Assembly: GCF_006345805.1 (NCBI RefSeq)
Contig: NC_043004.1
Coordinates: 52,390,001-52,454,000, forward strand
Length of the DNA: 64,000 nt
DNA from: Octopus sinensis
Lineage: Eukaryota
Reading direction: 5' to 3'
In this document: piece after piece, positions 1-55,950 of the stretch
Layout: the number at the start of each line of letters is the position of its first letter
How positions within the stretch are numbered: position 1 is the first letter of the stretch
Notes under the pieces: model-generated
The model's database searches: none
Seen by the model: the letters and a program-made list of their open reading frames with translations, nothing else
Told to the model about the DNA's origin: nothing
Program-made: the position numbers and the translations under genes

Positions 1-143
1 ATAAGTCATATATATCGAGACCCGCTCCTCGAAATTAGGTACCTAAGCCTGGTTTAAAGCCTTCTAATAGAGTCATCTGATTCCTGTCCTTCCACGATAG
101 AAAAGTGATTGTTTTTTATGCTATTACACAACCAGTAACGGTG

Positions 144-8432: not shown

Positions 8433-8494
<62 letters not shown>

Positions 8495-8500
<6 letters not shown>

Positions 8501-8909
8501 GGGCTCCTAAATAAGGATGCCAAGTGCTAGGGACACAAAAAAGGGATAAATTTATCGAGAGTGAAAATCAAAAACATTTACCGATAACGATACATGGATT
8601 TATTCGTAAAATTTCTTCCCGGCATGCCCTATATCGCCGGGTAGGTTTTGCGTCTGCACAGAGATTTGAAAAGTTAAGATCTGCAAGTTGTTTAGATCAA
8701 CGCATGGTCTAACGCGCTGCGCATCTCGTCCTAACTGAGGCGTCTCGCTGATGAAACCAGCCTTAGGAAACATATTCTGTCTGTTTTGCTAGAAAGAGGT
8801 AGAAACTGATATCAGTCCGGGATGTAACGTTATCGGTAAATGTTTTTGATTTTCACTCTCGATAAATTTATCCCTTTTTTGTGTCCCTAGCACTTGGCAT
8901 CCTTATTTA
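8495..8909. mobile_element. Fold-back Penelope-type non-autonomous element in (TA)n, with 88-bp inverted arms and a hammerhead
   Basis: Arms 8508-8595 and 8822-8909 nearly perfect inverted repeats; (TA)n on both sides; internal hammerhead motif. Confidence 0.8.
8741..8824 (+). ncRNA. Type I hammerhead ribozyme motif (C3:G8, GUC site)
   Basis: Stem I CGTCTCG/CGGGATG; CTGATGA 8748-8754; stem II base ACC..GGT; GAAA 8802-8805; palindromic stem III ACTGATATCAGT; GTC 8815-8817. Confidence 0.8.
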
Positions 8910-8916
8910 TATATAT

Positions 8917-8986
<70 letters not shown>

Positions 8987-9148
8987 GATAAGAAAGTTGG
9001 TTTGTGAAAGGACGAGGTTGAATATATAGAAAATAGTAAAAAGTGAAAAAACTACAGAAGACTTGTTTTAAAAGGTTAAAGAATATATATTTAAGTCAAT
9101 ATGTCTGAAGAATATTATAAACTTTTTTCTTACAATGACATAGTTTAG

Positions 9149-9187
9149 AAGAAAGACCGGTTTCGCGTTTAGCTTTTCAAATTTCTT
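9149..9187 (-). ncRNA. Minimal hammerhead motif, U3:A8 variant, in Penelope 3' tail
   Basis: Minus strand AAGAAAT-TTGAAAA-GC TAAAC GC-GAAA-CCGG-TC-TTTCTT; one-base offset in stem I; homologous degenerate copy at 35400-35437. Confidence 0.65.
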
Positions 9188-9295
9188 ACGTCGTTATGTT
9201 TATGTTGAGTAGAGTTATCGTTATGTTTATGTTGAAAAAGTTCTAAATAAGGGGAGGTAATAAGTGATTTCTTCCGATGTAAGGGAGATAATCGC

Positions 9296-10336
9296 TTAAA
9301 ATTCTTTTCCTTTCCTTTGGGGTGAATTTCTCTGTATAACTATGTTGGAATGGTTAAGTCTGGGCTTGTACTTTTCAATGAAGAATGTTTCCTTGTTTAG
9401 TCTAGTTTGTGTTGATGATCCGATAGCACATTGGTAAAATGGAAAGATTAAAAATAGTGGTAGTATTTGCTTTGCGCATTTCTCAATGTGCTCACTAAAA
9501 GGTATCATTCTGTATTCTGGGAATGCAATCTGTTGTCGATGCAGTATGCATCTACGTCTGAGTGATAGTCCCATGGATCCCACGTAGTCTTGGTGGCAGC
9601 CCCAGCATTTTATGACATAAATTATGTTTTCAGAGGCACAAGGAAAATTAGATTTGATCTTGAATTTCTGTCCCTCTTTGAAGAGGAATTCTGATCCTTC
9701 TAGCAGGTTTGGACATGTTGCACAGTTCGGTCTACCACATTTCTTTACTTTTGCATCCGTAATTTCAGAAAACAATTTTGCCTTTGTGAGAATCTTTTTA
9801 AGTGATTTAGGTTGTTTGTAGCTTTTAATGATTTGGTGAATGTTTAGAATTTCCTTTAATTTGGGGTCCTTATGAAGTATTGGTAAATTCTGGGTGATGA
9901 TGGTGAAGGCTTCTTTGTTTCTGGGGTTGTATGTAGATATGTAAGGTAGTATTTTCGGAGAAGGTGTGTTGTTGTGTTGAACTTTTCTTAAAGTTTCTAT
10001 GTTGATTTCTGTTGCACGTCTGATCCCATCCTCTATGAGTTGAGCTGGGTAATGTCTGTCAATTAGGGTGTTTTTGAGTTCTTGCAGTCTAAAGTTCTTG
10101 GTATTTTGTTCTGACACTATTGTGCATATCCTTCTTGCAAGGTTGAAGGGGATGTTTGTTTTAGTGTGTTTTGGGTGGCATGAATTAAAAAGAAGGTATT
10201 GTTTGGCGTCTGTGGCTTTATAAAAAATGTCTGTTTCTATTTTAAGGTTAATTTTTTTAATTAGTATATCCAAGATTGGGAGCTCCTTTTGGTTGTATTC
10301 CATTGTGAACTGTATATTTGGGTTTATGCTGTTCAA
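9296..10336 (-). CDS. Penelope-like RT thumb plus GIY-YIG endonuclease (partial ORF, Neptune-like CxxC)
   Basis: 346-aa ORF with PLE RT C-terminal motifs, Cys-rich linker and IIY...YVG GIY-YIG motif. Confidence 0.88.
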   Translation of the reverse strand: MNSINPNIQFTMEYNQKELPILDILIKKINLKIETDIFYKATDAKQYLLFNSCHPKHTKTNIPFNLARRICTIVSEQNTKNFRLQELKNTLIDRHYPAQLIEDGIRRATEINIETLRKVQHNNTPSPKILPYISTYNPRNKEAFTIITQNLPILHKDPKLKEILNIHQIIKSYKQPKSLKKILTKAKLFSEITDAKVKKCGRPNCATCPNLLEGSEFLFKEGQKFKIKSNFPCASENIIYVIKCWGCHQDYVGSMGLSLRRRCILHRQQIAFPEYRMIPFSEHIEKCAKQILPLFLIFPFYQCAIGSSTQTRLNKETFFIEKYKPRLNHSNIVIQRNSPQRKGKEF

Positions 10337-10704
10337 TAGGTTTTTAAATTTTAGGAGTTTATCTGTGTTTTCATTCCAGAGTATAAAACAATCGTCCAGG
10401 AATCGTTTCCAATTCTCTTTTATGTATTGAGAGAGGGGGTTTCCAAAGATTGATAAAGATTCCTGGTAAATGATTATTTCCAGGTAGCCCTTGTTAGGTT
10501 CGCAATGACTGGTGCTGCCCTTGTACCCATAGCAATTCCGGAAAAAAACTTATTAATTACATAAACAAAATGTAATAAAGTGTAACGAAAGAACTCTGGC
10601 CGAAATATCATCAATATGAAATTAAGCTGAAGTAAGTGAACACCGAATAATAGTGCGTGTGTTTCCACTGGCTAAATTGACAACGTGACCTTCTCAAATA
10701 CAAC

Positions 10705-10743
<39 letters not shown>

Positions 10744-10880
10744 TATATATTATATTGTGGGTACTACTATTCATAGATACCAACACGCTAAGAGGGACCA
10801 ATGCGGTCAAAACTACTAAAAATAAACAAAATTTTACCGAATGCAAAACTTCAAAACACATCATTTTAAAAAAGAATTCA

Positions 10881-10944
10881 GTTACATATCACATGTGATT
10901 TCGCATTTAATGCAGAATATGCATTTCATGTTCATCAGTGCAAC
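10881..10944 (-). ncRNA. Second copy of the 11414 hammerhead motif (a damaged third copy lies at 11321-11385, minus)
   Basis: Reverse complement of 11414-11477. Confidence 0.75.
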
Positions 10945-11413
10945 AAATATATTTCTTATATTTCTTGAGATTGTTGTGGTGTATTTCTTTAGTGGTGGAT
11001 TCCCTTTGCGGATCTATTTCTAGCGTTAGAGTGACCACATGTGGTCTCTCCCTCTTATTACCTATATATATATATATATATTAACAATTGAGGATAAAAT
11101 CTTTAAAAGAAATTATCAGTAGTCAGCGTGAAAAACCTCGTAAGAGAAAAAATCCGTAAATTCTTCCTCTTTGAAAATATTCATATATATTATATTGAGG
11201 GTACTACTATTCATAGATACCAACACGCTAAGAGGGACCAATGCGGTCAAAACTACTAAAAATAAACAAAATTTTACCGAATGCAAAACTTCAAAACACA
11301 TCATTTTAAAAAAGAATTCAGTTACATATCACAGGGGTTTTTTTGCATTAATGCAGAATATGCATTTCATGTTCATCAGTGCAACAAACTCAAGAAATAT
11401 AAGAAATATATTT

Positions 11414-11477
11414 GTTGCACTGATGAACATGAAATGCATATTCTGCATTAAATGCGAAATCACATGTGATATGTAAC
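11414..11477 (+). ncRNA. Type I hammerhead ribozyme motif (C3:G8, AUA site)
   Basis: Stem I GTTGCA/TGTAAC; CTGATGA 11420-11426; stem II CAT..ATG; GAAA 11456-11459; palindromic stem III ATCACATGTGAT. Confidence 0.78.
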
Positions 11478-11711
11478 TGAATTCTTTTTTTTTTGATGTG
11501 TTTTGAAGTTTTGCATTCGGTAAAATTTTGTTTATTTTTAGTAGTTTTGACCGCATTGGTCCTCTTAGCGTGTTGGTATCTATGAATAGTAGTACCCTCA
11601 ATATAATATATATGAATATTTTCAAAGAGGAAGAATTTACGGATTTTTTCTCTTACGAGGTTTTTCACGCTGACTACTGATAATTTCTTTTAAAGATTTT
11701 ATCCTCAATTG

Positions 11712-11771
<60 letters not shown>

Positions 11772-11772
<1 letters not shown>

Positions 11773-12098
11773 GGTAATAAGAGGGAGAGACCACATGTGG
11801 TCACTCTAACGCTAGAAATAGATCCGCAAAGGGAATCCACCACTAAAGAATTGTTCTCAAGTATTAATTCAACCGCTTACATTCTTGGCGTGTTGAATTA
11901 ATACTTGAGAACAATTATTTAGTGGTGGATTCCCTTTCCGGATCTATTTCTTGCGTTAGAGTGACCACATGTGGTCTCTCTCTTATTACATGTATTAATA
12001 ATTTTTACTGTATCTTAGTTTTTTTACGCTAGGCCACTTGGTGTTTTAAATTGATGTTATTAATTAATATTCAATTTTTTCACCCTTATTGTGATTTT
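11772..12098 (+). mobile_element. Fold-back element in (TA)n, probable Penelope-type terminal-repeat fragment
   Basis: Hairpin 11775-11873 / 11892-11989; tail related to 56060-56280 and 56833-57023. Confidence 0.6.
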
Positions 12099-25905: not shown

Positions 25906-26514
25906 TTTTTTTTCTGCCTTTTTGCTGCTGCTATTCGTCATTGGATTATTTATTGTAAATATCGCATTAGGTTTGGCAGAGTTGTTAAAATAGCGATAGC
26001 GAATAAAATATTTTATCGCATTTGTTTCGGCACTCTACATTATGAGGTCGATTCTCGCCGAATACTTTTTTTCCTTTAAGATCGAGATTACAAAATTCCA
26101 GTTCAGCCGAAGTTCATTATAAAGTTCATCTCATTTCGGAGAAGCAGCACGTCTCATCAGTTAATCTATGAAGGCCAATACTTACGCTTAGAAAGCTATA
26201 TATTTCAGCATTCGCTCATTAAAATGGTGATAAAATATATGCTAGTGATATGAACGTGCATCCAGATTTAGCCGTATGCCTCACAAACTCATTCATTATT
26301 ATGCTTTCTATTCCGCTGCGTGTCTTCCTGGGTAACATTTTCTAATGCCTCACATCGGCCTATAGATTGTGAGTAAAATTTGATTGACGGGATTGTATTG
26401 AAACCCATCGAGTGGTTTGTACTTTTAATTTCAATACCCCATCTTGAAACACAATGTTACGCTTATACTGTGTGAGAAGTACATTATTAAAAGTATGTGT
26501 GTGTGTCGCTGTAC

Positions 26515-46250: not shown

Positions 46251-46301
46251 AGCTTCTACAGGACTAGAACTGTTTCATTCAAGAGAAATCTTCAGGAAGC
46301 T
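46251..46301 (-). ncRNA. Type I hammerhead motif (mirror of 49107-49157)
   Basis: Reverse complement of 49107-49157. Confidence 0.75.
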
Positions 46302-49106: not shown

Positions 49107-49157
49107 AGCTTCCTGAAGATTTCTCTTGAATGAAACAGTTCTAGTCCTGTAGAAGCT
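49107..49157 (+). ncRNA. Type I hammerhead ribozyme motif (C3:G8, GUA site)
   Basis: AGCTTC-CTGAAGA-T TTC TCTT GAA T-GAAA-CAG TTCTAGTC CTG-TA-GAAGCT. Confidence 0.78.
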
Positions 49158-49570: not shown

Positions 49571-49606
49571 CTTTTACGTTTCGAGCCTACACTCTTCATC
49601 AGAAGG
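49571..49606 (-). ncRNA. Minimal hammerhead motif
   Basis: Minus CCTT-CTGATGA-A GAG TGTAGG CTC-GAAA-CG-TA-AAAG within a ~190-bp TA-flanked insert (49478-49670); weak stem I. Confidence 0.6.
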
Positions 49607-55425: not shown

Positions 55426-55950
55426 TTAATCACGTGGAGCCTCTTTATTTTGCAGTATTTCTCCCCTGCTCGTCAGTTTTTGCGATGGATGAAAAAGAAG
55501 AAATTCTGTTGTTTTTTTAATTTTTTCGGGGAAATCTGCAACCGAAACAGTTGCCATGCTTGTGAGAGCTTACAAAGCTAATGCTATGAGCAAAGCACAA
55601 GTTTACCAGCGGTTTTTACGCTTTAGGATCTTGGAAGACCGTCACCAAACAACTTACAATCTTGTGCATATAACTAGTGTTTCCTGGAACTCCTGACAAT
55701 GAATTTTGATCGAAGAATTGCGAATCGAAAGATTTGCATAAAAATGTGTGCCTTGCTTGCTTAAGGAAGATCAAAAAGGCACAGCTGAATGCGTGTCGCG
55801 AACTGAAAAAAACAGTTGGAAGTTGATCCAGATTTTTTTCCGAAGGTCATTACTAGTGAAGAAAGCCGGTGCTCCGGAATTTGCATATGTTGAAGAAGTG
55901 AAGAAAAAGACTATGCAGGCGTTAAAAGGATCACTTTGCAACAGTTCTAG
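55420..55950 (+). mobile_element. Internally deleted mariner remnant
   Basis: GKSATETVAMLVRAYKANAMSKAQVYQRFLRF N-terminal HTH; EEVKKKTMQALK C-terminal piece. Confidence 0.7.

What the first reader, a model, noticed from the sequence alone, without database searches (positions are those of the whole stretch)
8741..8824. Well-formed hammerhead whose predicted cut site lies next to the inversion breakpoint
Full core, 7-bp stem I and a 12-nt perfect palindrome (ACTGATATCAGT) as stem III. The predicted cut follows 8817 and the inverted arm begins at 8822. The opposite-orientation copy (8495-8595) therefore corresponds almost exactly to the 3' cleavage product. Inference: self-cleavage set the 5' end of the template that was reverse-transcribed.
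Basis: partly seen in the sequence, partly recalled or inferred. Interest (0 to 1): 0.75.

Follow-up and report, generated by a model that had tools for sequence, protein, structure and literature searches.

The report
Retrozyme copy starting near ribozyme cut
This is one back-to-back insertion of a young, protein-free 455-base repeat carrying a hammerhead RNA motif predicted to cut itself; most genomic copies run straight through the predicted cut, but copy ends are about twice as frequent in the 40 bases after it, so cutting likely sets the start of only a minority of the RNAs that get copied.

Summary
The motif is real: type I hammerhead at 8740-8825(+), cut predicted after 8817, inverted arm starting 4 nt later. 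It belongs to a dispersed, ORF-less, circularly permuted ~455-nt repeat family (two subfamilies, hundreds of copies) with compensatory changes in all three helices: a non-LTR retrozyme with Penelope-type insertion marks. Arms crossed the cut site 186 times, including this copy's own forward arm; only 2 begin exactly at the cut. So the cut does not usually set the template end. But 5' ends are not random either: 65 lie in the 40 nt after the cut (32 expected), 19 in the first 10 nt (7.5 expected), 4 in the 10 nt before it (7.0 expected). The excess recurs in the second subfamily. About one pass in eight stops there. Either cleaved templates or stalling in the extended helix I would explain this; genomic data cannot separate them. 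Odds that cleavage set this copy's end: about 0.4. The scan has reported other retrozyme families in this genome and others; none of its notes matched this sequence.

The parts
8740..8825 (+). Type I hammerhead ribozyme motif (predicted); helix I 8740-8747/8818-8825, helix II base 8756-8758/8798-8800 with a long distal stem, palindromic helix III 8805-8816
8748..8754 (+). Core CUGAUGA (C3-A9); extra A at 8755
8801..8817 (+). Extra A (8801; present in 143 of 144 family motifs), GAAA, 12-nt palindrome, C17; predicted cut between 8817 and 8818
8594..8909 (+). Forward arm of the retrozyme insertion: unit position ~m235, through the hammerhead and the cut site, to m92
8495..8595 (-). Inverted arm: unit positions m5 to ~m105-110; its 5' end is 4 nt after the predicted cut
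8594..8595 (.). Head-to-head junction with a 2-nt AT overlap shared by both arms
   Evidence: (gap -2)
8433..8494 (.). (TA)n target microsatellite, left flank
8910..8985 (.). (TA)n target microsatellite, right flank; a target-site duplication cannot be read inside it

Best explanation
The motif is a type I hammerhead, predicted to cut after 8817, in one head-to-head insertion of a ~455-nt protein-free repeat family (a non-LTR retrozyme) that is likely copied into TA microsatellites by a Penelope-like reverse transcriptase; most copies read through the cut site, and cleavage likely sets the 5' end in only about one pass in eight. Shown: motif, family, tandem and permuted organisation, two fixed 3' end sites (~m105-117 and ~m220-230), scattered 5' ends, read-through, and the twofold excess of ends in m1-40. 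Inferred: the endonuclease opens both strands of a TA tract; each end primes cDNA at a fixed internal site of a multimeric or circular RNA; synthesis stops at a roughly constant rate; the two cDNAs join 5' to 5' by microhomology (AT here). Where the template had been cut, the enzyme would run off at m1 and joining would lose 0-35 nt, which would give the plateau of ends just 3' of the cut. This copy's inverted arm (m5) is either such an end or an ordinary truncation.
For: Family and units; no stop-free frame over 70 aa; arms of up to 7 passes. Covariation: helix I pair T-A in 70 of 70 A motifs and A-T in 74 of 74 B motifs; helix II ACC/GGT against GCT/AGC; helix III palindrome swapped to ACCGCGGT. 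Penelope-type marks: 56 of 71 head-to-head pairs have one arm ending at each fixed site; 148 of 195 site-B ends abut (TA)n; two internal start sites and two-strand extension are reported for a purified Penelope protein (PMC11167929). Read-through. Excess: 65 against 32.2 in m1-40; rate ratio 2.55, unchanged by a GC covariate, bootstrap with one arm per insertion 1.7-3.7, later passes alone 14 against 5.4; the only 20-nt bins of the circle with p<0.001. R2 precedent for variable junctions after a ribozyme-cut 5' end (PMC3774820, abstract only).
Against: Only 2 of 253 arms start exactly at m1; the excess is a flat plateau to ~m32, not a spike. In the predicted circular fold m1-57 pairs with m236-390 in both subfamilies, so a stall zone would share the same edge. 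The A window was chosen after seeing the data (scan-corrected p 0.017). In B the adjusted rate ratio is 1.9-2.0 with p 0.045-0.063. This copy is atypical: both arms end near site A (3 of 41 pairs in A). No autonomous partner was identified; the neighbouring element's 3' region is no more similar to the unit than shuffles. In the anole Penelope, ribozyme cleavage was not needed in vitro and no RNA reads began at the cut (PMC11167929). Eight of nine Xenopus retrozyme dimers did not cleave in vitro (10.64898/2026.07.22.740005).
Confidence: 0.65

Rival explanations
1. Structure, not cleavage: the reverse transcriptase stalls or switches template while unwinding the long rod that extends helix I (m1-57 paired to m236-390), or folds back on local inverted repeats; the cut plays no part in any end.
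For: The rod is predicted in both subfamilies and ends at m1. The plateau is flat. Several near-symmetric inversions have both ends at m8-47. Cleavage was dispensable for the anole Penelope in vitro.
Against: Other bins predicted to pair upstream show no excess, nor does m41-60, which holds a strong part of the rod. In B's linear context m1-20 pairs downstream, not upstream. Plain flank junctions show the excess as strongly as inversions (rate ratio 2.8 against 2.3). 11 ends lie in m1-5 against 3.7 expected.
Confidence: 0.25
2. One reading: self-cleavage routinely sets the template's 5' end, so inverted arms are copies of the 3' cleavage product.
For: This arm starts at m5; the enriched zone begins at the cut.
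Against: 28 of 33 A inversion arms that reach m10 pass the cut; 74 of 106 inversion ends lie outside m1-40. Passages through the cut show no added bases in 88 A and 66 B regex-matched junctions (one lacks a base), which fits uncut or religated RNA better than jumping across a nick.
Confidence: 0.04
3. Chance and ascertainment: ends are random, and the excess comes from anchoring searches 30-70 nt downstream of the cut and from end-calling.
For: Anchors at m31 and m71-74 favour short arms; alignment ends shift by a few nt; symmetric pairs are not independent.
Against: Left-truncated survival analysis; the excess persists in later passes, far from the anchor (14 against 5.4), and with one arm per insertion; window fixed in advance for B.
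Confidence: 0.06

Closest known systems
Metazoan non-LTR retrozymes (Cervera and de la Pena 2020, PMC7229834: part 2 of 6 and found passages read; Li, Clavereau and Pollet 2026, bioRxiv 10.64898/2026.07.22.740005: parts 1-3 of 5 read)
   Same: Short tandem units with one type I hammerhead each, no ORF, GC under 50% (36-38%), dispersed monomers and multimers, strongly self-paired predicted circle.
   Different: Unit of ~455 nt is at the upper end of the 150-450 nt range given in the 2020 paper; long helix II with an extra A on both sides; 8-12-nt palindromic helix III. Expression, cleavage and circles are not shown here. The parts I read do not map insertion ends against the cut.
Insertions of endonuclease-positive Penelope-like elements (Craig et al. 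2021, PMC8557442: passages; Arkhipova et al. 2013, PMC3846280: passages; Frangieh et al. 2024, PMC11167929: parts 1-2 of 4; Cervera and de la Pena 2014, PMC4209133: part 1 of 4)
   Same: 5' truncation, partial tandems, an inverted 5'-truncated copy head-to-head, (TA)n targets, two fixed internal 3' ends, hammerhead with palindromic helix III expected to work as a dimer.
   Different: No RT-endonuclease ORF; the two 3' sites are ~110 nt apart, not a 30-40 nt tail (7 nt-scale in the anole assay); no parent element found.
R2 retrotransposon 5' HDV-like ribozyme (Eickbush et al. 2013, PMC3774820: abstract only)
   Same: A ribozyme cut can define the template's 5' end and still leave variable, microhomology-primed junctions.
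   Different: In R2 the cut is the rule for full-length copies; here about seven of eight passes read through.

Membership tests
Type I hammerhead ribozyme | Conserved core CUGANGA, GAAA, NUH | tested here: met
   an extra A after A9 and before G12 is atypical but conserved
Type I hammerhead ribozyme | Three helices around the core, open at helix I | tested here: met
   two-sided changes between subfamilies in helices I, II and III; helix II is not favoured in the energy model
Type I hammerhead ribozyme | Match to an Rfam hammerhead model at gathering score | tested here: not met
   no hit in the window; a weaker threshold was not tried
Type I hammerhead ribozyme | Self-cleavage after H17 | not testable with these tools
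   needs an assay
Non-LTR retrozyme | Tandem units of a few hundred nt, one type I hammerhead per unit | tested here: met
   cut-to-cut units 438-460 nt in A, 444-455 in B; up to 7 passes; the window's copy itself holds less than one unit per arm
Non-LTR retrozyme | No protein coding, GC below 50% | tested here: met
   longest stop-free frame 53-70 aa; GC 36-38%
Non-LTR retrozyme | Dispersed mobile copies | tested here: met
   161 and 58 distinct insertions with unrelated flanks (one locus in both sets)
Non-LTR retrozyme | Expressed as linear and circular RNA | tested here: inconclusive
   only assembled contigs of runs guessed to be RNA were available
Autonomous Penelope-like element | ORF with reverse transcriptase and GIY-YIG endonuclease | tested here: not met
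   the unit closes on itself in tandem copies
Non-autonomous Penelope-like element | Penelope-type insertion structure (inverted 5'-truncated copy, fixed internal 3' ends, AT-rich target) | tested here: met
Non-autonomous Penelope-like element | Sequence shared with the terminal repeat of an autonomous element | tested here: inconclusive
   only the neighbouring element was compared, without a significant match; no genome-wide search for a partner

The most novel reading that the evidence does not exclude
The genome keeps a quantitative record of hammerhead cleavage in vivo: about one reverse-transcription pass in eight ends at or just after the cut because the template was a cleaved linear RNA, while the rest used uncut multimers or religated circles. 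The excess on later passes would mean that linear multimers with a cut 5' end, not only circles, serve as templates. This would give a sequence-only readout of ribozyme activity for any Penelope-type family.
Probability: 0.45. Interest if true: 0.65.

Novelty: new member of a known kind. Interest (0 to 1): 0.45.

Why it matters
What hammerheads do for Penelope-like elements is called unclear in PMC8557442 (passage), and cleavage was dispensable in the one in vitro system (PMC11167929). Whether retrozymes are copied from circles or linear RNA is also untested. Mapping 253 ends gives a number: most templates are uncut at the site, yet ends step up exactly there. That turns the question into one experiment (active against core-dead template). 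The element class and the inverted structure are known, and this single locus proves nothing alone.

Tried and rejected
Rfam at gathering score: no hit. Free folding of 8735-8832 does not give the active fold and is no better than shuffles (z -0.71). Expression: no RNA holder listed; only contigs, which cannot show RNA ends; no contig joint across this copy's inversion was listed, which says nothing either way. The neighbouring ORF as partner: best match 18 nt, score 26 against shuffle maxima 31-35. Naming that ORF by database: Pfam nothing significant, PDB none, no Atlas result, so its Penelope identity rests on recalled motifs. Fold-back of one cDNA as the origin of this copy's inversion: the short arm extends 13 nt beyond the long arm's 3' end, so it is not nested unless a later deletion occurred. 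Paired arms differ at 3.7% (A) and 2.2% (B) against 6.6% and 2.9% for random pairs, too noisy to decide one template against two. Local GC as the cause of the excess: no effect. A spike at the cut: not found with first-pass end calls (8 against 5.4 in A; 1 against 1.8 in B); 13 against 7.2 after re-calling. Helix II and III indices were off by one and were redone. The first regex for B motifs caught only 9 atypical motifs and was replaced. Literature: searches listed no paper mapping retrozyme 5' ends against the cut; subscription papers and the bioRxiv supplements were not seen and may bear on this.

Full report
Observation. The inverted repeat is 8508-8595/8822-8909, 88 nt with one mismatch, and the whole insert lies between two (TA)n tracts. 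Helix II closes with 3 bp and has an extra A on both sides. The energy model puts the active fold 6 kcal/mol above the minimum, and the palindrome is far more stable between two molecules (-16.0) than as a hairpin (-1.8). That fits the dimeric hammerheads described for Penelope-like elements (PMC4209133, part 1 read). Rfam gave no hit.

The family. A search of the own genome (2.7 Gb) returned copies at 90-95% identity on many contigs. Exact 24-31-nt motifs occur 111, 130 and 91 times, with 0 for reversed controls. Tandem copies close the unit on itself: about 457 nt from cut to cut. I number it from m1 = 8818. A second subfamily, B, is 85% identical, 454 nt long, has 131 exact hits for its own motif and forms arrays of up to seven passes. 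Neither encodes more than 70 aa, GC is 36-38%, and the circles fold better than 40 shuffles (z -3.6 and -2.9). In 144 regex-matched motifs (70 A, 74 B; selected on the core, so not a measure of core conservation) one helix I pair is T-A in all A and A-T in all B; helix II changes from ACC/GGT to GCT/AGC; helix III changes to another palindrome and is palindromic in 131; the A before G12 is kept in 143. The structure is therefore under selection. Activity is inferred, not shown.

Anatomy of insertions. I fetched the places of the first 100 listed hits, all 91 and the loci. They gave 161 insertions with 222 arms against the A consensus (1 cluster at a locus edge skipped) and 58 insertions for B (7 edge clusters skipped); one locus is in both sets and was counted only as B when pooled. 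3' ends pile at two sites, about m105-117 and m220-230. Single-arm insertions end at the second site in 113 of 132 cases; of 71 head-to-head pairs, 56 have one arm at each site. 148 of 195 ends at the second site abut (TA)n. Inverted 5'-truncated copies and (TA)n targets are standard for Penelope-like elements (PMC8557442 and PMC3846280, passages), and a purified Penelope protein cuts and extends both strands from internal start sites (PMC11167929). The window's copy is a forward arm from about m235 through the hammerhead to m92, joined by a 2-nt AT overlap to an inverted arm m5 to m105-110. Both its arms end near the first site, as in only 3 of 41 A pairs.

I kept arms that hold an exact anchor motif (182 of 222 for A, 72 for B) and treated 5' ends as a survival process starting at the anchor. 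In A, 102 of 114 arms that reach m10 pass the cut by 5 nt or more, and ends within -4..+5 are not enriched (8 against 5.4). m1-40 holds 39 against 23.5, p 0.017 after correcting for the window scan with 300 simulations. With that window fixed, B gave 19 against 8.2 (p 0.0009) and 3 against 7.1 in the 40 nt before the cut; adjusting for first against later passes weakens B to a rate ratio of 1.9-2.0, p 0.045-0.063. Pooled (253 arms, 207 insertions) the ratio is 2.55, unchanged by local GC, 1.7-3.7 in 60 bootstraps with one arm per insertion, present in both inversion and flank junctions, and present on later passes alone (14 against 5.4). m1-20 and m21-40 are the only 20-nt bins of the circle with p<0.001. 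The best-fitting zone is m5-m32, left edge -2..7. Re-calling only the ends between -25 and +45 against all read-through variants (which can shift ends a few nt upstream) gave 11 in m1-5 (3.7 expected), 19 in m1-10 (7.5), 65 in m1-40 (32.2), 4 in -9..0 (7.0), 2 exactly at m1, and 186 passages through the cut. The excess is about 33 of 251 approaches, one in eight. Of 106 inversion ends, 7 lie within -4..+5 and 32 in m1-40.

Mechanism. The most likely course (inferred) is Penelope-type priming from both ends of a cut TA tract at fixed internal sites of a multimeric or circular RNA, random stopping, and microhomology joining of the two cDNAs. Most templates were uncut or religated at the hammerhead; passages show no added bases (88 A and 66 B regex-matched junctions, one lacking a base). 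A minority would have had a cut 5' end, with 0-35 nt lost on joining, as reported for R2 elements whose ribozyme cuts at the element's end (PMC3774820, abstract). The main rival is stalling: in both subfamilies m1-57 is predicted to pair with m236-390 as an extension of helix I, and that rod also ends at m1. Against it, m41-60 and other paired bins show no excess; for it, the excess is flat and cleavage was dispensable in the anole system. I weigh cleavage about 0.6 given a real excess. Since 60-70% of ends in m1-10 are excess, the chance that cleavage set this copy's m5 end is about 0.4.

Comparison and novelty. The element meets the tested features of metazoan non-LTR retrozymes (PMC7229834; bioRxiv 10.64898/2026.07.22.740005); expression and cleavage could not be tested, and no partner was found. 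It is a new member of a known kind. Earlier notes of this scan describe other retrozyme families in this genome with the same two-ended footprint (they call the animal an octopus, which I did not check) and one family elsewhere whose ends pile at the cut. None matched this sequence. They are unchecked notes, and my reading was formed before I saw them. Paper searches listed no study mapping retrozyme 5' ends against the cut. Verdict: observation confirmed, interpretation partly supported, interest 0.45.

Noticed in passing
window 8990-10549 (-): 5'-truncated Penelope-like element next to the retrozyme: 417-aa open frame with RT C-terminal, CxxC and GIY-YIG-like motifs (motifs recalled; Pfam and PDB gave nothing significant). 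Relatives at 34-64% lie at window 35.7-36.3 kb and in seven other fetched places.
   Followed up: partly
window 9149-9187 (-): Minimal hammerhead in that element's 3' end with the U3-A8 core variant (TTGAAAA, short helix II, GAAA, CCGG, GTC), like the variant described in PMC4209133.
   Followed up: partly
window 10736-11983: Another complex tandem and inverted insert between (TA)n tracts with three copies of a minimal hammerhead-like motif (CTGATGA ACAT GAAA TGCAT) at 10924-10938(-), 11365-11379(-) and 11420-11434(+); likely a separate retrozyme or Penelope end.
   Followed up: no
window 26134-26160(-), 46273-46295(-), 49113-49135(+), 49579-49602(-), 55458-55476(-): Further CUGANGA...GAAA matches; 20 in the window (some overlapping) against 2.6 expected.
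   Followed up: no
window 8655-8672 (+): The retrozyme unit carries AGAGATTTGAAAAGTTAA, close to the neighbouring element's minimal hammerhead start; possibly a relic of a second core, but not significant against shuffles.
   Followed up: partly
L326, L330, L312, L122: Subfamily B forms longer arrays (up to 7 passes) and its 5' ends occur at about half A's rate per base (0.23 against 0.52 per 100 nt); its cut triplet is GUU rather than GUC.
   Followed up: partly
L044, L065, L073, L092, L094, L163, L229, L293, L324: Near-symmetric head-to-head junctions with both ends at m8-38; L073 and L092 share the same breakpoints (m21/m26) in different flanks, which suggests a preferred fold-back site.
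   Followed up: no
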